A stretch of 64,000 bases of DNA, from contig OX597816.1 of NCBI GenBank assembly GCA_951406725.2, forward strand, positions 99,758,001 through 99,822,000. The letters are read 5' to 3'. The notes under the pieces are model-generated. The model worked only from the letters and a program-made list of their open reading frames with translations, had not been told where the DNA came from and made no database searches. A program made the position numbers and the translations under genes. Shown here one piece after another: positions 3,172 through 62,409 of this stretch. Positions within the stretch are counted from its first letter, which is position 1. The number at the start of each line of letters is the position of its first letter. Source of the DNA: Octopus vulgaris. Its lineage: Eukaryota.

Positions 3172-3213
<42 letters not shown>

Positions 3214-3296
3214 GGTCCCGGGTTGATTCGGGGTTAACCACAGTAAATAAGGTACTCAATACATAGCAGAGTAAAATTAATTTATTATATAGAAGG

Positions 3297-3347
3297 AGCT
3301 TCTACAGGACTAGAACTGTTTCATTCAAGAGAAATCTTCAGGAAGCT
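3297..3347 (-). ncRNA. Type I hammerhead ribozyme in the PLE 3' terminus
   Basis: Minus strand reads AGCUUC-CUGAAGA-U UUC ucuu GAA U-GAA-ACAG uucuaguc CUGU-A|GAAGCU. Helix I is 6 bp and perfect, helix III is 4 bp, and the cleavage triplet is GUA. Confidence 0.85.
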
Positions 3348-3677
3348 AGTTAACAAGAATTGTATTGGCATTTATACATTTAGGCAGGTTTAAAGGGGTG
3401 GTGGTGGGGGACTTTTTGGGGGTAGGCATAGCACAAAATATCATACTTGGGGGAGTGGTCAAGGAGTCAGTGGTAAATTAGATAAAAGAATAAATAAAAG
3501 AATAAAAAAATATATAAAAGAATAGAGTTTTAGGTAAATAAGGAGATTCTCACTTATACCTATACACATATGTATACATATATACACACACACACACACA
3601 TATACATACACACATACATACACACACACACATATATATATATATACACATACATATACATACATATATCTACACAC

Positions 3678-3732
<55 letters not shown>

Positions 3733-4339
3733 TGCATACACATATACACACACACATGTATATATACACACACGACCACGCATACATATACACACAAAAA
3801 ATATATACATACACACACATACACATACACGCATACACACACATATCCACATACACACATGCACACACAACACACAAGTCCCTATATACACATATATACA
3901 CATACACACACATACATATATATACATATATATATATACATATGTGTACCTATACATACCTACACATACACACATATACATACAAATACAGACCCATTCC
4001 CTAATTTTAATTTTATTATCTTCATTTATTACTTTTGTTATCTTTGACCGCTGGTCACAAGCATCCTGGCTATGACAGCAAGTCCATTTATCTTTCTACT
4101 TGAAAACAAGCACTCATTCACGCACGCACACTCATTAGCACGCACACTCAGTCATTCGTACACTCATACACATACACGCACGCACGCGTTATATTCATAC
4201 ATACATCCATCTACATACATTCACGTATATACACATACGTACGCGTACCTACAGATTCATGTCTACACTCTTAGAAGGCTAGTCTATACATATACTCCAA
4301 TAAATATATATACACACATACATATACACCTACATACAA

Positions 4340-4390
<51 letters not shown>

Positions 4391-4395
<5 letters not shown>

Positions 4396-4589
4396 CCTTA
4401 AATCCTTAAAAATGTTTTAGCCCGAAGGCCGCGACATGCTGGGGCACCACCGCTGAATGAGCTACACTAGTTTGTGAATCCACCTCTGATATGTGGCACT
4501 TGATCAACAAGGGAGTTCGATGCTGCTGCCCGCATCCGTGTCTCCTGTCGTGAGGTAGGTTCATCTGGGACTCCCAACAAGAAGAGATC

Positions 4590-4594
<5 letters not shown>
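4391..4594 (-). mobile_element. ~200 bp retroposon 3' fragment inserted into (TA)n of the left arm
   Basis: Relatively GC-rich block flanked by (TA)n, with a minus-strand tail of (AAGGATTTA)2; absent from the equivalent (TA)n of the right arm (~9865-9903). Confidence 0.6.
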
Positions 4595-4638
<44 letters not shown>

Positions 4639-4785
4639 TATACACACATATACACGTATACATACATACATACATACATCCATACATACATATATACACA
4701 TACACACACCCACACGTATACATATACATACATATATATACGCGCATGCATACACATACAAATACATACACATACACATATTCAT

Positions 4786-4830
<45 letters not shown>

Positions 4831-5182
4831 CATACATATACATACATACATATACAAATATACACACACACATACATACACATATACACATACACGCACA
4901 TACACATGTACATGCATACCCATACACACACGCACACACGCGCATCCATATATACACATAAGTACACACATGCGTAAAAGTATACATATATCTATGCTTA
5001 CACATACACACACACACACGCGCCTCCTTATATTCATACTTACATGCATACTCAAAAAATAAATAATAAAATATATATACGCGCAGTTATTCATACATGC
5101 ATACTCAAAAAATAAATAATAAATATTAAGTATATGTACGTGCAGTTACCAATTATACAGACGGATACATACATATAAACTT

Positions 5183-5245
<63 letters not shown>

Positions 5246-5454
5246 CTTACACATATGTACATATACATACACACATACATAACTCTACGTACCTACATAT
5301 ACATAAACACACGAGCGTACACGTATATGTACATATACACATACACATACACACACATATATATACATACATACATATACATACACACACATATACATAT
5401 ATATATATATATTTATATATATTTTTATATATATATACACACATACACACAACT

Positions 5455-7208
5455 ACCCAAACGCGGCCGTAGCCAGTACCGCATCGACTGGCCTCCGTGC
5501 TATGGGCACAACAAACACCATCCGATCGTGGCCGTTCACCAGCCTCATCTGGCACCTGTGTCGGTGGCACATAAAGACACCATCCGAAGACCCGGCGACG
5601 TAGTCAGTCCACCTGTGCATACCTTCCCTCTTATGACACTTGTGAAGACCTGTTGAGGCAAGTGAAAATCAAACCAAATCAAAATAGATGAACATCAATG
5701 GAATTTGTATCTTTGTGGTTCCAGTACCGGTGGCACACAAGAAAACCATCCGAACGTGGCCGTAGCCAGTACCGCATCGACTGGCCTCCGTGCTGTGGGC
5801 ACAACAAACACCATCTGATCGTGGCCGTTCGCCAGCCTCATCTGGCACCTGTGTCGGTGGCACATAAAAACACCATCTGAAGACCCGGCGACGTAGTGAG
5901 TCCACCTGTGCATACCTTCCTACTTATGACACTTGTGAAGACCTGTTGAGGCAAGTGTGTGACACTTGTGTAGACCTGTTGAGGCAAGTGAAAATCAAAT
6001 CAAATCAAATCAAACCAAATCAAAATAGATGAACATCAATGGAATTTGTATCTTTGTGGTACCAGTACCGGTGGCACACAAGAAAACCATCCGAACGTGG
6101 CCGTAGCCAGTACCGCATCGACTGGCCTCTGTGATGTGGGCACATAACAAACACCATCCGATCGTGGCCGTTCGCCAGCCTCATCTGGCACCTGTGTTGG
6201 TGGCACATAAAAACACCAACCGAAGACCCGGCAAGACTAGTCAGGCCATAACCCGTAGCCCCTACTTGGGACGTAGTCAGTCCACCTGTGCATACCTTCC
6301 TTCCTTCTTGTGACACTTGTGAAGACCTGTGAAGACCTGTTGAGGCAAGTGAAAATCAAATCAAATCAAATCAAAATAGATGAACATCAATGGAATTTGT
6401 ATCTTTGTGGTACCAGTGCCGGTGGCACACAAGAAAACCATCCGAACGTGGCCGTAGCCAGTACCGCATCGACTGGCCTCCGTGCTGTGGGCACGTAACA
6501 AACACCATCCGATTGTGGCCGTTCGCCAGCCTCATCTGGCACCTGTGTCGGTGGCACATAAAAACACCATCCGAAGACCCAGCAAGACTAGTCAGGCCAT
6601 AACCCGTGGCCCCTACCTGGGACGTAGTCAGTCCACCTGTGCATACCTTCCTTCTTGTGACACTTGTGAAGACCTGTTGAGGCAAGTGAAAATCAAATCA
6701 AAAATCAAATCAAAACAAATCAAAATAGATGAACATCAATGGAATTTGTATCTTTGTGGTACCAGTGCCGGTGGCACACAAGAAAATCATCCGAACGTGG
6801 CCGTAGCCAGTACCGCATAGACTGGCCTCCGTGCTTTGGGGACGTAACAAACACCATCCGATCGTGGCCGTCCGCCAGCCTCATCTGGCACCTGTGTCGG
6901 TGGCACATAAAAACACCATCCGAGCGTGGCCGTCTGCCAGCCTTGTCTGGCACCTGTGTCGGTGGCACATAAAAACACCATCCGAGCGTGGCCGTTCGCC
7001 AGCCTCGTCTGGCACCTGTGTCGGTGGCACATAAAATCACCCACTACACTCTCGGAGTGGTTGGCATTAGGAAGGGCATCCAGCTGTAGAAACACTGCCA
7101 GATCTGACTGGCCTGGTGCAGCCTTCGGGCTCCCCAGACCCCAGTTGAACCGTCCAACCCATGCTAGCATGGAAAACGGACGCTAAATGATGATGATGAT
7201 GATGATGA
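5455..7208 (+). mobile_element. Tandem concatemer of RTE LINE 3' UTR (one partial plus four units) ending in a (GAT)n tail
   Basis: Units start gaagaccc at 5586, 5879, 6222 and 6573. The terminal unit ends ...aacccatgctagcatggaaaacggacgctaaat(gat)n, like the RTE 3' end at 12140-12204. Confidence 0.85.
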
Positions 7209-7231
7209 TATACATACACACACATACACAT

Positions 7232-7270
<39 letters not shown>

Positions 7271-7357
7271 TACACACACACATATATATATATACACATA
7301 CATACATACACATACATATACATATACACACATACACACACACACATACATATATAC

Positions 7358-7409
<52 letters not shown>

Positions 7410-7827
7410 GTGTGCAAACATACATACATACTCATACACACACACACACACACTTACATATACATATATACACACACTTACACACATATATACATACATA
7501 TATACATACATACATACATACACATATTCATACATATATATATTCACACATACACATATATATATATATATACATATATATATACACTTACACATACATA
7601 TATATATATACATACATATATATACATATACACATACATATACACACACATACATATATATATATACCCACACCTACACATATACACATATATACATATA
7701 TACATACATATACACACATACACACACACACACATATATATACATACATACACATACACATACATATATATATATATATATATACATACATATACACATG
7801 CACATACGTATAACTCTACATACCCAC

Positions 7828-7868
<41 letters not shown>

Positions 7869-8117
7869 TACATATACATATATATATGTATATATACACA
7901 CACATATATATACCCATCTACAATCTGTATATACACACACATACATGCACATACACATAACTCTACATACCTACATATACATCGACATACTCGCGTACAC
8001 TTATATATATATATATACATACATGTACACACACACATACATATACATATATACATATATACATATAAATACATACATACACACACATATATATATATAT
8101 AACACACACACACACAT

Positions 8118-8157
<40 letters not shown>

Positions 8158-8684
8158 ACAATTGAGGGTAAAGTTAATTAGTTATTAATCAATTTCACCA
8201 AGTATTCAGTATGTAAAAGGACCATTATTTTTTTGAGTAAACAATGTCTGATAGAAAATATTCTTTAAGTAGTGGAAGAGGCTAAAAAACTTTTTTTGGC
8301 TGCTATTTCTAGAAAGTTCAGTATGTGGCAAAGTAATTTATTTTACTAAGCCCTAATTATATAATATTTTATACATACATACACATACATACACACATAC
8401 ATATACACATACATATGCATACACACATATATACATATATACATATATACAAACACACACACACACACACACATACATATATATATTTTTTTTTTTTTAC
8501 ATACATACACACACACACACATAATACATGCGTATATTCCTACTATACCCATACATTTCTATACATATATACGATACACATATACAAGCGTGCACATACA
8601 ATATGTGAAAGGTCTTAGGAGAAAAGGTAATCGGGGGTGCTAGGGGAACGGTGGGATTGGGGGGGTTTTGTGGGTGGGGTGTCA

Positions 8685-9070
8685 TCAATCTGGTTGCCGG
8701 GTAGGTCTATAGTTCTTGTAGTTTGCATAATTCTTATGCATGCAATTTGGGGAGTGTTCTGAGATCTTGTTAAGGAGAGGGCCTTTGGCGAACAAGATCT
8801 CTAGGCTCTCCGAAATGCAAAGGTCACAGCAGGTATGGCCTCCAGTGTACGAACGCGCCTTCTGTAGTAGTTTCCACTTGGTCTTGAAGGGGATGGAGTT
8901 CCTTTTAAGGTACCAGATGTGGGCGGCGAGGGTAGTTTGGTTGGATTTATCCTGTCGCCGGAACGAGTGTGTGTGTGTGTACCAACGGGTCTTAAAGCTG
9001 TTTGACGTCATTCTGATGTAGGATTTTCTTTTATCGTCAGGGCCTGATCTTACCTCGCATGTATATACAT
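8685..9070 (-). pseudogene. Penelope GIY-YIG endonuclease domain and ORF C-terminus (5'-truncated)
   Basis: VYTCEV...KSYIRMTSNSFKTRWYTHTHSFR...TTLAAHIWYLK...KWKLL...CDLCISESLEIL...LLNKISE...CMHKN follows the PLE pattern VY..YIG.T..FK.R..H..SF..CxLC..E..LLN..E..CxH. Confidence 0.9.
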
Positions 9071-9071
9071 G

Positions 9072-9254
9072 TATATATAAAAATATATATAAATATATAT
9101 ATATATGTATATGTGTGTGTATGTATATGTATGTATGTATATATATGTGTGTGTATGTGTATATGTACATATACGTGTACGCTCGTGTGTTTATGTATAT
9201 GTAGGTACGTAGAGTTATGTATGTGTGTATGTATATGTACATATGTGTAGTATG

Positions 9255-9319
<65 letters not shown>

Positions 9320-9673
9320 AAGTTTATATGTATGTATCCGTCTGTATAATTGGTAACTGCACGTACATATACTTAATATTTATTATTTATTTTTTGAGTA
9401 TGCATGTATGAATAACTGCGCGTATATATATTTTATTATTTATTTTTTGAGTATGCATGTAAGTATGAATATAAGGAGGCGCGTGTGGGTGTGTGTATGT
9501 GTAAGCATAGATATATGTATACTTTTACGCATGTGTGTACTTATGTGTATATATGGATGCGCGTGTGTGTGTGTGTGTATGGGTACGCATGTACATGTGT
9601 ATGTGCGTGTATGTGTATATGTGTATGTATGTGTGTATATTTGTATATGTATGTATGTATATGTATGTATGTG

Positions 9674-9708
<35 letters not shown>

Positions 9709-9857
9709 ATGTATATGTGTATGTGTATGTATTTGTATGTGTATGCATGCGCGTATATATATGTATGTATATGTATACGTGTAGGTGTGTGTATGTGTAT
9801 ATATGTATGTATGTATGGATGTATGTATGTATGTATGTATACGTGTATATGTGTGTG

Positions 9858-9912
<55 letters not shown>

Positions 9913-10516
9913 TTGTATGTAGGTGTATATGTATGTGTGTATATATATTTATTGGAGTATATGTATAGACTAGCCTTCTAAGAGTGTAGACATGAATCTG
10001 TAGGTACGCGTACGTATGTGTATATACGTGAATGTATGTAGATGGATGTATGTATGAATATAACGCGTGCGTGCGTGTATGTGTATGAGTGTACGAATGA
10101 CTGAGTGTGCGTGCGTGAATGAGTGCTTGTTTTCAAGTAGAAAGATAAATGGACTTGCTGCCATAGCCAGGATGCTTGTGACCAGCGGTCAAAGATAACA
10201 AAAGTAATAAATGAAGATAATAAAATTAAAATTAGGGAATGGGTCTGTATTTGTATGTATATGTGTGTATGTGTAGGTATGTATAGGTACACATATGTAT
10301 ATATATATATATGTATATATATGTATATGTGTGTATGTGTATATATGTGTATATAGGGACTTGTGTGTTGTGTGTGCATGTGTGTATGTGGATATGTGTG
10401 TGTATGCGTGTATGTGTATGTGTGTGTATGTATATATTTTTTTGTGTGTATATGTATGCGTGGTCGTGTGTGTATATATACATGTGTGTGTGTATATGTG
10501 TATGCATGTATATGTG

Positions 10517-10570
<54 letters not shown>

Positions 10571-10957
10571 AGATATATGTATGTATATGTATGTGTATAT
10601 ATATATATATGTGTGTGTGTGTATGTATGTGTGTATGTGTGTGTGTGTGTGTGTATATATGTATACATATGTGTATAGGTATAAGTGAGAATCTCCTTAT
10701 TTACCTAAAACTCTATTCTTTTATATATTTTTTATTCTTTTATTTATTCTTTTATCTAATTTACCACTGACTCCTTGACCACTCCCCCAAGTATGATATT
10801 TTGCGCTATGCCTACCCCCAAAAAGTCCCCCACCACCACCCCTTTAAACCTGCCTAAATGTATAAATGCCAATACAATTCTTGTTAACTAGCTTCCTGAA
10901 GATTTCTCTTGAATGAAACAGTTATAGTCCTGTAGAAGCTCCTTCTATATAATAAAA
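9072..10957. repeat. Right arm of the ~2 kb inverted repeat
   Basis: Reverse complement of 3282-5430, lacking the 4391-4594 insert. Confidence 0.95.
10890..10940 (+). ncRNA. Type I hammerhead ribozyme in the inverted pLTR copy
   Basis: agcttc ctgaaga tttctcttgaat gaa acag ttatagtc ctgt a gaagct; same fold as 3297-3347 with one substitution in the helix III loop. Confidence 0.85.
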
Positions 10958-10975
10958 TATATATATATATATATA

Positions 10976-11326
10976 TATATTAGAAGAAATAAGGTACTCA
11001 GAAAATCGGATGGTTTATATTTACAGATATTTATTTGTATATTACATTTTTTTATATATATCATATAACTTAGATCATGTATTAGCGCTTTCTCCCATTC
11101 TAGTGGGGTTTTCAAATCAAACTAAGTCCCTGTGTGAGGAGTGACTATAAAATGGTCAAAACTCCTCACACAGGAACTTAGTTTGATTTGAAAACCCCAC
11201 TAGAATGGGAGAAAGTGCAAATACATGATCCAAGTTATATGATATATATAAAAAATGTAATATACAAATAAATATCTGTAAATATAAACCATCCGATTTT
11301 CTGAGTACCTCATTTCTTCTAATATA
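10976..11326. repeat. Near-perfect fold-back hairpin with ~167 bp arms and an 18-nt loop
   Basis: 10976-11142 is the reverse complement of 11161-11326 with only a handful of mismatches. Confidence 0.95.
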
Positions 11327-11380
11327 ATAATACCTGTACATCATCTCCAAACCTTCCAATATATATATATATATATATAT

Positions 11381-24334: not shown

Positions 24335-26110
24335 ACCATATGTACTCAACTATAAAATGCCCTCGCCTATAAGACACTCTTAAAATCAGGAATTTTATCA
24401 TTGACCCAGCTATAAGTTGCAGCAACTTTTTTGATGTTGGAGAGCAAAGTTCAATTAGGAATCACACTGACATAGTTGTTGCTTGGTAACTGAGCTTTCA
24501 GTACATTGAAGATGACTCAGAACAACTGCTATCCCATTAAGTCCATGCATTTTAGAAACCTTTGTTTATAATGTAAAATCTTGTCCTTGATAACACTAGT
24601 TGGCTTGTTTATCATATTGAGACTTAATTGCCTCGATACTTTCCCTTTACTTTTTGATTTATGCCTTTCATTATTAAAACATTTTTGCAGCACTGAACAC
24701 ACAAAACCATGCAGTAATATGTGCCATGATTGGAAAAAAATGCAATAAGCTGTTTTAAATTGTAAGGAAGTGTATGAAACATTGTGACAAAAATCGAAAG
24801 AATAAATGAAGGAAGTATTGAGTTATACTAATCATCCCTTTCACCAAATAACTGGTAAAACTCCTCGGTTATGATGGTCTCGTTGTATACACTCTGAACC
24901 TTCTCTTCACTTGCCTGATCTTCATTAACTGACAAAGCACTGGGACTAGCATTTCTTGCACAGACGAAGTCATTATAAGTCATCTTCTGTACCATCCATG
25001 GAATTTGAGATCCCGCACTTCAAAAATGATTTCATCACAAGTCCACTCGGTATTTCAGCCAATGAATCTATCACCCACTAGCAAACAGTCTTAAGGTCAG
25101 GGTGTTCAAAGTTCCCAGTCTTTGTCATTTCCTTGTCACTATTAATCATCCATTCATTCCACTTGGCATGCATGTTCACCTTAGAAGGCTTGTTCACTGA
25201 CACGTCATGTGGCTGAAGCACAGATGTACATCTTCCTAGATTCACAGCTTGGTAGGTACAATGCTCCTTTAATCTATTTTTTTATGCTGTCAATCACATG
25301 AACCCTGAACATATCCCATACAAGAAGCAACTTTGAATTAAGCATAGTCCCTGGGTGCTTGAATCACTCATCGTTTAACCATTTCGTCAATATGGTTTCA
25401 TCTACTCACCCTTTCTCCTGAACATACACCACTATGCCCTTCGGAAACCTCTCTTTCGGGAAAGTCTTTCTTTTGAAAACAACAGCCAGGGTAAGTTTCA
25501 TGCCATCAGCTATACAAACTAAAACTGGTGTAGTGGGCCTTGTCACTGAAATTGTGTTTTTCCCTTTAACGACAACTTTCCAAGTCCAACCATATTGGGA
25601 AAAAAGGGGTGCCACGTCCATATTACTGATTGCTTCCAAAGCAAACTCATGGCTCTTTTGTAGGTCTTTTACATACCGATAGAAGGAATCAACTTTGGTC
25701 TCTACGTCGGCAGATAATTTCTGTGTAATATGAATCCTCTGTCTCAGCCTAAGATTGTTACATTTTATAAACCTTGTACACCAGCTAGGGGATGCTTTAA
25801 AGTTGGATATACCATCTTCTTTAGTCACTTGGAGAGCCCACAATCTAATGATGTTTCTTGTGACAAGTCCATTCGTGCACAATTCAGTCACCAAGTCTAT
25901 CAAAATAGTTTCCATCTCCTTATTGGGATTGTCATATTCTAATTTTCTTTAATGATTTGATGTCACCAGATTTCATTTTCGCTTCTTTCAAAAGTAAATC
26001 TGTGACCATTTTTTCTGCAGCTCAATTCGAATGTGACTTTGCATATTCAACAACTTTCAGCTTGAAAGTGATATCATACAAATGGCTATGAATTGTTATT
26101 ACTACATATG
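24335..26110 (-). mobile_element. Decayed pogo-family DNA transposon (Brinker-type DBD, CENP-B HTH and DDE_1 transposase)
   Basis: YDITFKLKVVEYAK..; FKASPSWCTRFIKCNNLRLRQRIHITQKL; ISNMD..PL; VLVCIADGMKL..VVFKRK..P..IVVYVQEKG; FKKCGISNSMDGTEDDL; stops and frameshifts; pogo-like TIR taccatatgtactcaactataa at 24334. Confidence 0.9.
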
Positions 26111-55988: not shown

Positions 55989-57135
55989 CATCATCATCAT
56001 CATCATCATCGTTTAACATCAGTTTTCTGTGCTACCACTGGTTGAACAGTTCGACCGGGGTCTGGGAAGCCAGGAGGCTGCACCAGGCTGCAGTCTGATC
56101 TGGCAGTGTTTCTACAGCTGGATGCCCTTCCTAACGCCAACGACTCCGTGAGTGTAGTGGGTGCTTTTTATGTGCCACCAGCACAGAAGCCAGTCAAGGC
56201 GGCACTGGCATGGCCATGTTTGGATGGTGCTTTTTATGTGTCACTGGCACAGGTATCACAACTACTATTTCCATTTGATATTTATTTCGATGTTCATGTA
56301 CTTGACTCAATAGGTCTCCTCAAGTACAGCAGGTTGTTCTGCAATCCAAGGTACTTTGAATGGGCTGGGGCTATGCAAAACTGGTGCAGGAAGCAGCCCG
56401 GTTCTTTGCAGTCACAGCATATCTGCAGAGATCTTGGTCCTTCATCATTGCCTCTGTGAAGCCCAATGCTCGGAGGTCATGCTTGACTACCTCATCCCAT
56501 ATCTTCCTGGGTCTACCTCTCCCCCTGATACCTTCAACTGTTTGGGAGTGGCACTTCTTCACACATCTCTCCTCATCCATCCGCAGTACATGACCATACC
56601 ATCGCAAGTGTCTCTCTTGCACACTACATCTGATGCTTCTTATGTCCAGCATTTCTCTCAGGGTGCTTATACTCTGTCGTGCATGTACACTGACATTACA
56701 CATCCAGCGGATCATGTTAACTTCATTTCTTTCAAGTCTATGCATGTCCTCTGCAGTCACAGCCTATGTTTCACTACCGTGAAGCATGGCAGTTTGCATA
56801 CATGCATCATACAATCTACCTTTTACTCTGAGCGAGAGACCCTTTGTCGCCAGTAGGGGTAGGAGCTTTGCCCAGGCTATTCGTATTCTAGTGGTGACAC
56901 TCTCTGAGGATCCGCCTCCACTACTAACTTGGTCACCTAGGTAGCGTAAACTATCAACTACTTCTAGTTTCTCCCCCTGGGGTGTGATGGAATCTGTTTT
57001 CTGAGTATCTGTGGTGTCTATTGTCCCTGTGCATCTGCCACACATGAAAGCTATCTTATCAGTTAATTTCCCTTTGATGTTGCTGCACCTCTTATGCATC
57101 CATAGCTTACACAGGGTACATCTTATGGAGTTTAT
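55989..57135 (-). mobile_element. 5'-truncated RTE LINE with PHD-like finger, RT C-terminus, 3' UTR and (GAT)n tail
   Basis: [18 protein letters not shown]; [12 protein letters not shown]; [26 protein letters not shown]; LRWYGHVLRM..RGRGRPRKIW. Confidence 0.92.
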
Positions 57136-58039: not shown

Positions 58040-59330
58040 ACCTACTTGAATTTTGTATATATATATACTTAATGGTAATTAAAAACAACACCACAATCAC
58101 AACTGATATTTATTACAAAAGCACAGATACACACCATTGCCTAAATTTCAAATCATGCCAACCAGCACACACAAAACACAACATCCCGTCCTGTCATCAC
58201 CACAGATAGAGGAGGTAGGGTAAGGCGAGGAAAATTAGTGCTATAGTTGATGATCCAAATACCAGAAGCACTTGACTTATAGAACTCAAAGGATTTCTGC
58301 TCAAGCAACATTACCCTCACCTACTTATAGAAAATAGCATACAATGAGCAAAAGAGGTGCCTATAGAACAACTTGGAGTAACACAAAAAACACAAACCCA
58401 TCAAAGGAACACAATACCATTTCTAGTAACACACAATCCACATCACCAAAACATTTTTAACAGCATCAAAACAAATTTGCTAGTCACAAAACAAAATGAA
58501 GAACTAAAAAACATAATAACTAATCAAACACTTATCTTAAGCAAAAGGTAACCACATAACCTAAAGAAACTATTTACAAAGGCAAAATTCAACATGTACA
58601 ACTGGGACGACACATTCACAGAATCCAAGTGTAATGATTACAAATGTGGAATGTGTCAATACATGCATCCAGGTAGATCCATTAGAACAAAAGATGGACA
58701 GATTTTCACAAATGCAGGAATGAACTGCAAAAGCAGAAATTTGAACTATTGCATTAAATGCCTGAATTGCAAGGAATTATATATAGGCAAGACAAGGAAT
58801 GCATTTTCAGAATGTTCACAAGACCACAGACAACAAATCCAGAACTCTAATGTTCGCCAAATTCCATTGAGTGAACGTATAGAGACATGTGGTCAGAAAA
58901 TGTTTCTAATTTTTCCTTTCCACAAATTATTTGACACAAGGCAGTCTAGAAGAAAGATAAAAGAAAAACGGTTTATTTAAATATTCAAACCTGTTCTGAA
59001 TGGAAATAACAGCAATAATATAACAGCCAGTTAATGATGTGGATTAATAAGTATAAACAAGTTACAGAATATTGGTATGCCTGGCAAACCGTGATGTTTA
59101 AGAGCATGTGAATTGATCAAAAAAATATTCTAAAAACTCAGCTGATTGGAGTGTTCTATGAGGTACTAAAGTTGTCAAGAACTCAACTGTTTGTTATACA
59201 CATTTGAAATCTGATGAGTACACTATGTATGAAAGCGTCAATTTTATTAAAATACCATAATAAAAAACACAAAATCCAGACTATGTTTTAACTTTATTCA
59301 ACTGATATATTATTCTATACACATTCACAC
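58040..59330 (+). mobile_element. Decayed Penelope-like element (RT thumb, GIY-YIG and pLTR)
   Basis: TDIYYKSTDTHHCLNFKSCQPAHTKHNIP; CNDYKCGMC; MNCKSRNLNYCIKCLNCKELYIGKTRN..HRQQI; hammerhead motif downstream. Confidence 0.9.
59205..59246 (+). ncRNA. Minimal hammerhead motif
   Basis: tgaaat CTGATGA gtac actat gtat GAAA gc GTC a atttta. Confidence 0.6.
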
Positions 59331-61430: not shown

Positions 61431-62409
61431 CTTTGGTGCCAAGCTACCCTCAATAATAATAGTAACAACTTCTTTGATATAACCATGGGCTCCTCTGACT
61501 TCGCTTTGGTTGTAGATCCGGTCAGACTATACCTCCTCCAGTAACTCCACATATATTTTCCTAACATCAAGGGGAATTTGTATAGGGATGATGCATTGTT
61601 GGTTACTATAGGCCTAACTAAATCCATATTAGAGAAGACTAGAAAAGATTTACATAAATTCTTTGCTAATTTCAATTTATCTATAGATTTAAAATCTTCA
61701 CTATACTACCCCTACCATAAGCCTAATCAATACTTCAGATACATTAGCACAAACTCTAATCACCATAAATCTACCTTTGATAGTGTAATCAAAAGCATAT
61801 CTATTCAGATATTTGATCTCTCATCTATGGAGGAAATCTTCAATCACCATGCTACATACAACCAGGCACTAGCTGCTAGCAGCTTTTCCCAGCAAATTAA
61901 ATTCATAGCTAACACTAGGGTTAAAAAACACACATGTAAACTCAGTTCCAGTGGGACATGCCCCACTACTAGACATATTAACCCATCCACTATAGACAGA
62001 CAAAACTAAAACCCTGCTAGAAACCTAGAAGGACCATGTGTGAGACGCTCTCATTCACCCTGTGCTCAGCCCTATAACACTCAATCAAAATTCAAACTGA
62101 TAAACAACAATGAATCCTACAACTCTCCTCAAACAAATACTGTAGATTATATTTCCTCTATATTGCCTAATAAACATGGGGAAAGGCCAATTCTCTGGTT
62201 TACGCTCCTATTCACTTTAAACGTTAAGAGCTTAGCCAAAATCTTTTTTCAAATAGTAGACTCTAACTTCCCACATCTCCATAAGTACCATTCAATCTTC
62301 AACAGATCTACTCTGTAATTATTCCACTCCTCTCCACCCAATATAGAACCTATTGTTACCTCTTCCAATAAGTGTAAACTTAATTCCTACTACCTATATA
62401 TATATATAT

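What the first reader, a model, noticed from the sequence alone, without database searches (positions are those of the whole stretch)
3211..10957. Penelope element with ~2 kb inverted arms, each capped by an intact outward-facing hammerhead ribozyme
Seen: 3282-5430 and 9072-10957 are reverse complements, the inverted copy is fused almost exactly at the GIY motif where the ORF is truncated, and each arm carries a complete type I HHR with perfect helix I, 4-bp helix III and a GUA site. Established: PLEs form inverted pLTR structures and carry HHRs, usually minimal ones. Inference: these HHRs are non-minimal and may cleave as monomers. A read-through transcript in either direction would fold into ~2 kb dsRNA and be self-cleaved at its distal end, giving a ribozyme-delimited long hairpin that could be an ADAR or Dicer substrate. 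The arms differ by SNPs, indels and a 200-bp insertion, which argues against a fold-back assembly artifact.
Basis: partly seen in the sequence, partly recalled or inferred. Interest (0 to 1): 0.75.

Follow-up and report, generated by a model that had tools for sequence, protein, structure and literature searches.

The report
Ordinary back-to-back Penelope retrotransposon insertion
This is one of thousands of young, back-to-back insertions of a known jumping-gene type that carries a predicted self-cutting RNA motif at each outer end; the proposed ribozyme-trimmed long hairpin is unlikely, but the family's many copies suggest that its RNA likely starts at the motif's first base and is likely copied from two fixed points at once.

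Summary
The inverted arms (99% alike), the endonuclease fragment and both hammerhead motifs are real. The locus is a 5'-truncated Hydra-clade Penelope-like insertion in (TA)n, with an inverted truncated copy and a 71-bp tail on one end. That layout is published (Craig 2021, including a Hydra element with a hammerhead on each strand). It is also the family norm: 7,695 exact hammerhead matches in the genome, 60 of the first 100 in diverging pairs. The 4-bp helix III is typical of Hydra hammerheads; only the 8-nt loop differs, and it keeps a palindrome that suits dimers. The long-hairpin idea is unlikely: the ribozyme lies inside the arms and would pair with its own antisense copy (-128 versus about -7 kcal/mol). 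Transcription and cleavage are untested. The family-level pattern is more interesting: a tail on one arm only in 30 of 30 pairs, both arms from one subfamily, 666 exact joins at the first bases of helix I against 15 and 6 at other palindromes, and a TATA box 29 nt upstream. This likely marks the RNA start. The scan noted the tail rule (this genome) and the TATA reading (another genome) before.

The parts
3176..3210 (.). (TA)n run, left target flank
   Evidence: sequence; family copies end in (TA)n
3211..3281 (-). 71-bp tail, on this arm only; equals the start of the 5' leader in copies that continue into the ORF
   Evidence: loci L038 and L087 run from the tail into the ORF
3282..5441 (-). left arm: 3' part of the 3' UTR of the main copy
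3297..3347 (-). type I hammerhead motif, family-majority sequence; predicted cut after 3303
   Evidence: 41 of 69 copies identical
3370..3376 (-). TATA-box-like TATAAAT, 29 nt before the first base of helix I (predicted promoter, firing outward)
4393..4638 (.). later insertion in the left arm only: about 205 bp of another repeat inside a TA run
5452..7207 (+). later insertion: tandem array of another repeat ending in (ATG)n, related to the 3' end of an RTE-like LINE (RTE label recalled from the protein motif)
   Evidence: its left junction occurs once in the genome
7208..8684 (-). 5' part of the 3' UTR of the main copy, mostly degenerate microsatellite
   Evidence: aligns with three other copies at 89-90%
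8685..9068 (-). C-terminal GIY-YIG endonuclease fragment, 5'-truncated at LVY; YIG reads YIR in this copy; CxxC..E..N..CxH motif present
9058..9071 (.). 14-bp palindrome at the head-to-head junction
   Evidence: sequence
9060..10959 (+). right arm: inverted, 5'-truncated copy ending at the short end, no tail
10861..10867 (+). TATA-box-like TATAAAT, 29 nt before helix I (predicted promoter, firing outward)
10890..10940 (+). type I hammerhead motif; private C>A change at 10924 breaks the loop-3 palindrome; predicted cut after 10934
   Evidence: 1 of 69 copies
10931..10949 (+). predicted 8-bp hairpin that competes with helices I and III
10958..10980 (.). (TA)n run, right target flank
   Evidence: sequence

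Best explanation
The locus is a 5'-truncated, non-coding copy of a young, high-copy Hydra-clade Penelope-like retrotransposon inserted in a TA repeat as two head-to-head arms, likely made when two reverse transcriptions were primed from the two cut target strands on one RNA, one from a short start point and one from a start point 71 nt further on. Shown: element identity, target, layout, one-sided tail, same-subfamily arms, two later insertions in the left copy. Inferred: the two cDNAs stopped early (one at the GIY motif, one in mid 3' UTR) and were joined at a short palindrome. Inferred: the family RNA starts at the first base of hammerhead helix I, 29 nt behind a TATA box, so each arm end would carry an outward-firing promoter. 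Predicted: the hammerhead is a weak, Hydra-type motif that folds only briefly at the RNA 5' end or as a dimer, and it would be blocked in any transcript that spans both arms.
For: Clade: family ORF has DKT, YRDD, CxCx5C linker, CxxC..E..N..CxH, an RWR motif, and 888 homologues at E<=1e-20, of which 105-120 of the 120 listed carry each motif; these are the Hydra traits in PMC8557442 section 11. Commonness: 7,695 exact matches to a 31-nt hammerhead pattern; 60 of the first 100 lie in 30 diverging pairs within 10 kb against 2 converging neighbours (hand count of the list); 24 of the other 40 also have an inverted family piece directly upstream (by eye); 19 of 36 loci picked by likeness to this arm are paired. 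Tail rule: 29 of 30 pairs have the full tail on one arm only and the 30th a partial tail on one arm (P about 2e-9 for 30 of 30); in the likeness-picked set 22 of 23, the exception also duplicating its flank. The tail is on the longer arm in 12 and on the shorter in 9 of 21 pairs by physical length, which a fold-back of one cDNA does not explain. Same template: loop-3 allele equal in both arms in 29 of 30 pairs (P about 1e-5); the partner arm is the nearest or co-nearest sequence for 28 of 34 arms. RNA start: exact joins number 666 at the AGCT of the helix I 5' strand, 15 at the AGCT of the 3' strand, 6 at the loop-3 palindrome; of 100 arms 22 begin at +1, 63 in +1..+21, 13 in -1..-45, 24 reach further; TATA-to-helix spacing is 29 nt in 28 of 30 arms that hold it, across subfamilies whose spacer differs. 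Duplex blocking: -128 kcal/mol for 78-nt sense and antisense ends against about -7 for the hammerhead fold.
Against: No transcript, cap or cleavage data. Twin priming is read from DNA ends only; in vitro, Poseidon RT showed no difference in start site between strands (PMC11167929). The 666 joins could partly come from re-amplification of ready-made mini palindromes. In D. virilis Penelope the promoter is TATA-less and the start lies upstream of an intron that ends at helix I (PMC2377424 passages; PMC4209133), so +1 here could be a splice acceptor (YAG is present). Only 2 of 3 published Hydra consensus sequences whose upstream part I could see have a TATA-like run about 30 nt before stem I. The search pattern cannot see arms that start after +21. 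No tree was built, and Pfam and PDB gave no RT or GIY-YIG hit.
Confidence: 0.72

Rival explanations
1. One reading: a read-through transcript forms about 2 kb of dsRNA whose far end is cut by a monomer-active hammerhead, giving an ADAR or Dicer substrate with a defined end.
For: Arms are 99% alike over 1.9 kb. In the isolated 51-mer helices I and III form with probability about 0.7 and 0.5-0.7. Loop 3 has 8 nt, against 1-3 nt in all 26 Hydra rows of Craig file S2. The only recurrent core variant among 69 copies is at the free position 7 (11 copies). An earlier unchecked note reports an A-to-G hyper-edited Penelope array in this genome.
Against: The ribozyme lies inside the duplex: if the hairpin forms, the ribozyme is blocked. 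Helix II forms in about 5-7% of the ensemble, and the full fold drops from about 2e-2 to about 5e-4 once 10 nt of natural flank are added on each side. The loop-3 palindrome is kept in 100 of 100 listed matches and a subfamily variant (26 of 100) lengthens it; self-dimer energies are -12.8 and -15.2 against -1.4 kcal/mol for the monomer hairpin. The 17 arm differences show no A-to-G run. The loop between the arms is 3.6 kb.
Confidence: 0.07
2. The inverted arm arises by fold-back or self-priming of one cDNA, or on an antisense template, as proposed for Adineta elements.
For: Palindromes sit at junctions here (14 bp) and in the mini pairs; PMC3846280 reads such palindromes as self-priming; 29 asymmetric joins pair the two helix I strands; same-subfamily arms are expected.
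Against: Copying back one cDNA cannot put the tail on the shorter arm alone, seen in 9 of 21 pairs, at least 6 with clearly unequal arms.
Confidence: 0.13
3. The join hotspot at helix I marks a splice acceptor or a protein-bound RT stop, or reflects re-amplified mini-palindrome masters, not the transcription start.
For: YAG precedes helix I in all subfamilies; the D. virilis intron ends at helix I; a mini pair could be copied whole.
Against: No recurring extra exon sequence in the 19 mini-pair junctions; exact joins occur in several subfamilies; TATA spacing is fixed while the spacer diverges.
Confidence: 0.3
4. The inverted duplication is an assembly artefact.
For: No read spanning the junction or both arms was obtained.
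Against: Arms differ by 17 substitutions, 14 small indels and a 246-bp insertion, have different ends and flanks, and follow a family-wide end rule.
Confidence: 0.02

Closest known systems
Hydra clade of C-terminal EN+ Penelope-like elements, e.g. Hydra-1_Obim and Penelope-13_HM (Craig et al. 2021, PMC8557442; passages, section 11, supplement files S1 and S2 and short sequence passages seen)
   Same: RW(K/R), DKT, CxCx5C linker, CxxC and CxH around E and N, (TA)n target, hammerhead with 4-bp stem III and often U.U closure; Penelope-13_HM is listed with a 5'-truncated inverted copy and a hammerhead on each strand; Fig. 2 legend describes the inverted copy and one-sided tail.
   Different: A separate family from Hydra-1_Obim (different hammerhead row; proteins compared by eye only); 3' UTR about 3.3 kb and microsatellite-rich where listed Hydra elements are about 3 kb or less in all; tail 71 bp rather than 30-40; loop 3 of 8 nt rather than 1-3.
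Poseidon PAc of the green anole (Frangieh et al. 2024, PMC11167929; parts 1-2 of 4 read)
   Same: Two RT start points define the tail; both target strands are cut and extended; uncleaved RNA is the template; predicted dimer.
   Different: Other clade; tail lies in the ORF there and in the 5' leader here; no strand coupling of start sites was seen in vitro, whereas here one arm always has the tail.
Minimal hammerheads of metazoan PLEs (Cervera and de la Pena 2014, PMC4209133; parts 1-2 of 4 read)
   Same: Hammerheads in PLE repeats, pairs on opposite strands 100-700 bp apart, palindromic loop 3, low activity.
   Different: This motif has a real 4-bp helix III, a short helix II and no G10.1-C11.1 pair.
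Adineta Pen2a and relatives (Arkhipova et al. 2013, PMC3846280; passages)
   Same: Head-to-head inverted pLTRs, tail on one of them, palindromes at junctions, a putative TATA box in the pLTR.
   Different: They interpret the inversion as self-priming on an antisense template; the tail pattern here fits two priming events better.

Membership tests
Penelope-like element, EN+ | single ORF with RT and C-terminal GIY-YIG endonuclease | tested here: met
   family copy L097 has an open frame with YRDD followed by the endonuclease; the window keeps only the endonuclease part. Pfam gave no RT or GIY-YIG hit, so this rests on motifs and homologues
Penelope-like element, EN+ | partial tandem or inverted copies with a tail | tested here: met
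   L087 is a direct tandem
Hydra clade | RWK and DKT motifs | tested here: met
   RWR and DKT in L038 and L097
Hydra clade | CxCx5C linker; CxxC and CxH flanking E and N | tested here: met
Hydra clade | absence of the CCHH motif in the endonuclease | tested here: inconclusive
   not seen by eye; no alignment to a CCHH-bearing endonuclease was made
Hydra clade | insertion into (TA)n | tested here: met
Hydra clade | grouping with Hydra reference RTs in a tree | not tested
   reference sequences were only seen as text in a supplement
Type I hammerhead ribozyme | CUGANGA, GAAA and NUH core with three helices | tested here: met
   helix II weak; no Rfam hit
Type I hammerhead ribozyme | G10.1-C11.1 pair | tested here: not met
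   U.U here, as in 14 of 26 Hydra rows of Craig file S2
Type I hammerhead ribozyme | self-cleavage | not testable with these tools
   needs an in vitro assay
Minimal hammerhead (min-HHR) | helix III absent or 1-2 bp | tested here: not met
   4 bp with an 8-nt loop
Non-LTR retrozyme | tandem non-coding units, each with a hammerhead | tested here: not met
   one hammerhead per arm and an ORF remnant; definition from bioRxiv 10.64898/2026.07.22.740005, part 1 of 5 read

The most novel reading that the evidence does not exclude
The thousands of copies of this family are an in vivo footprint of the Penelope cycle: the mRNA starts at the first base of hammerhead helix I behind a TATA box, two RTs start on one uncut RNA at two fixed points, one per target strand, and cDNAs that run off the 5' end anneal through the AGCT palindrome built into helix I. 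The hammerhead's first helix then doubles as the joint for second-strand synthesis, and a downstream hairpin keeps most templates uncut.
Probability: 0.45. Interest if true: 0.6.

Novelty: new member of a known kind. Interest (0 to 1): 0.33.

Why it matters
The locus itself matters little: it is one of hundreds of multi-kilobase pairs of this family (9 of 30 sampled pairs span more than 1.7 kb). How Penelope elements make inverted repeats and one-sided tails, and what their hammerheads do, are stated as open in PMC8557442. If the family-level reading holds, it gives sharp predictions: the start base, two RT start points, one template, and the joining site. It would also mean that several thousand outward-firing promoter-plus-hammerhead ends are scattered through this genome.

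Tried and rejected
Rfam scans gave only microsatellite-driven miRNA hits and no hammerhead (in one search the 32 lowest-scoring rows were not shown). The repeat finder was swamped by microsatellites. Pfam and PDB sequence searches gave nothing useful; the Atlas gave no answer. Read tests were no test of the junctions: simple repeats were skipped at 9062-9240 and 10943-10989, and the one raw-read run laid no reads. Contigs of two runs guessed to be RNA cover the family hammerhead region, but they cannot be tied to this locus or shown to be RNA. The idea that the tandem array at 5452 was already in the source element found no support: its junction occurs once in the genome. The upstream GTTAAC join (1 match) and the 1,090 read-through ends apply to one subfamily only and were not used as fair controls. 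The RT_up labels were wrong (index error) and were ignored. The automatic long/short tally (10 to 11) had anchor errors; I recounted from the physical lengths (12 to 9). Loci L099 (duplicated flank) and L097 (used as reference) were left out of that count. A link between the GIY motif and the truncation point was rejected because break points scatter. Paper searches for octopus, Penelope and hammerhead, for inverted, tail and twin priming, for editing and for promoter and TATA showed no paper on this family or on a start at helix I; most of those papers were seen only as listings, and subscription papers are not covered.
Full report
Observation. The two arms are real: 3278-5441 on the minus strand pairs with 9060-10959 on the plus strand at 1864 matches to 17 mismatches, with 14 small indels and a 246-bp block only on the left. 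About 60% of each arm is alternating purine-pyrimidine repeat. Each arm ends in a type I hammerhead motif (10890-10940 plus, 3347-3297 minus) with a 6-bp helix I, a 4-bp helix III and a GUA site. Helix II has only 3 bp and a U.U closure. Rfam did not score the motif.

What the locus is. The window lies in a 2.8-Gb animal genome; earlier notes call it octopus-like, and I did not test that. The minus strand holds a GIY-YIG endonuclease fragment (8685-9068), a 3' UTR of about 3.3 kb that aligns with other copies, the hammerhead, and a 71-bp tail (3211-3281). Copies L038 and L087 show that the tail is the start of the 5' leader that leads into the ORF. The right arm is an inverted, truncated copy without the tail. 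Both ends sit in (TA)n. The array at 5452-7207 and the block at 4393-4638 are absent from three other copies aligned and are best read as later insertions. The family protein carries the Hydra-clade motifs listed in section 11 of PMC8557442. No tree was built.

How common. A 31-nt hammerhead pattern has 7,695 exact matches. Of the first 100 listed, all on contig C1, 60 lie in 30 diverging pairs within 10 kb and 2 neighbours converge (hand count). Of the other 40, 24 also have an inverted family piece directly upstream (by eye). Nine of the 30 pairs span more than 1.7 kb. Among loci picked by likeness to this arm, 19 of 36 are paired, and 3 of 20 other pairs have a shorter arm of 1.75 kb or more. 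The layout is in print: Craig 2021 describes the inverted truncated copy and one-sided tail and lists Penelope-13_HM with a hammerhead on each strand. Cervera 2014 mentions opposite-strand pairs, and Arkhipova 2013 and Schostak 2008 describe inverted ends.

The hammerhead. In Craig file S2, 23 of 26 Hydra rows have a 4-bp stem III and 14 of 26 the U.U closure, so these are clade traits. The 8-nt loop 3 is the one difference (1-3 nt in all 26 rows). It could allow monomer folding, but it keeps a CUAG palindrome in 100 of 100 listed matches, a subfamily variant lengthens the palindrome (26 of 100), and the self-dimer is far more stable than the monomer hairpin. The right arm has a private change that breaks this palindrome (1 of 69 copies). 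The full fold has a probability of about 2e-2 alone and about 5e-4 with 10 nt of natural flank on each side, because an 8-bp hairpin takes the cleavage site. For an RNA starting at helix I, that helix is likely (0.7) only between lengths of about 51 and 58 nt. These are equilibrium predictions without tertiary contacts or protein; a Poseidon hammerhead needed its protein to cut.

The long-hairpin idea. A transcript across both arms would carry the antisense copy first and the sense ribozyme last, inside the duplex. The 78-nt ends pair at -128 kcal/mol against about -7 for the hammerhead fold. Either the hairpin forms and the ribozyme is blocked, or it does not form. Editing of such a duplex is possible for any transcribed inverted repeat (general knowledge), but nothing shows that this locus is transcribed; the read tests could not address it.

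How it was likely made. In the 30 pairs from C1 the tail is on one arm only in every case (29 full, 1 partial). In the likeness-picked set it is 22 of 23, and the exception duplicates its flank too. The tail is on the longer arm in 12 and the shorter in 9 of 21 pairs (recounted from physical lengths). Both arms share subfamily alleles (29 of 30) and are nearest neighbours (28 of 34 arms). Two priming events on one RNA, one at each of two start points, fit all of this and agree with two start sites and cutting of both strands in vitro. Fold-back of one cDNA does not explain short-arm tails. This step is inference from DNA ends.

Where the RNA likely starts. Nineteen of the 30 pairs are mini pairs joined at or near the AGCT that opens helix I. 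Genome-wide, exact joins number 666 there, 15 at the AGCT of the other helix I strand, 6 at the loop-3 palindrome, and 29 pair the two helix I strands. Of 100 arms, 22 begin at +1, 63 within +1 to +21, 13 within -1 to -45 (some of these are internal deletions or chance matches), and 24 reach further. A TATAAAT or CATAAAT lies 29 nt before +1 in 28 of 30 arms that hold it, in subfamilies whose spacer differs at about half of its positions. Two of three published Hydra consensus sequences seen have a TATA-like run about 30 nt before stem I. I read this as the transcription start (about 0.6), with a splice acceptor, an RT stop or re-amplified mini elements as rivals. If right, the arms here carry promoters that fire outward, not through the hairpin.

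Earlier notes. After my own tests of each point, the scan's notes showed the same short-end/long-end rule in this genome (e1-8669363), twin priming for retrozymes here (e1-8669888, e1-8672319) and the TATA reading in another genome (e1-9231625). They are not independent support.

Verdict. This is a new family of a known clade in a known layout. The locus is ordinary; the family-level footprint is of moderate interest to specialists and has been noted before in this scan. Supplements of PMC4209133, PMC11167929, PMC3846280 and PMC2377424 were not read and may bear on end positions.

Noticed in passing
window 10976-11360: A second high-copy family (1,954 candidates) forms a small head-to-head pair in the same TA run, with an extension of about 37 bp on one end only, as in L106 and L109. 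Its ends share a 13-nt motif with the middle of this family's tail. No hammerhead was found in it.
   Followed up: partly
window 5441-5452: The later tandem array starts within about 10-15 bp of the point that matches the inner end of the right arm. The junction is unique in the genome; the coincidence is unexplained.
   Followed up: partly
L166 and L134: Two arms begin exactly at helix I +1 with a G in front where the family has a pyrimidine, as a copied cap might leave; two cases only.
   Followed up: no
L099 (G000:C9:48354500-48364499): Inverted pair with no tail whose two flanks are also alike: a later DNA-level inverted duplication or an assembly issue.
   Followed up: no
window 4393-4638: About 205 bp of another repeat in a TA run of the left arm; also present in L095 at 95%.
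   Followed up: no
window 61545-62315, 58552-58977, 25409-25948, 56374-56763: Remnants of other mobile elements: an older Hydra-like RT, another GIY-YIG-like piece, a DNA-transposase-like piece and an RTE-like ORF end (labels recalled from motifs).
   Followed up: no
family 3' UTR, window 3550-8684: About 3 kb of degenerate microsatellite travels inside the element, with an internal repeat (about 5250-5330 and 7950-8030), so the family spreads simple repeats.
   Followed up: no
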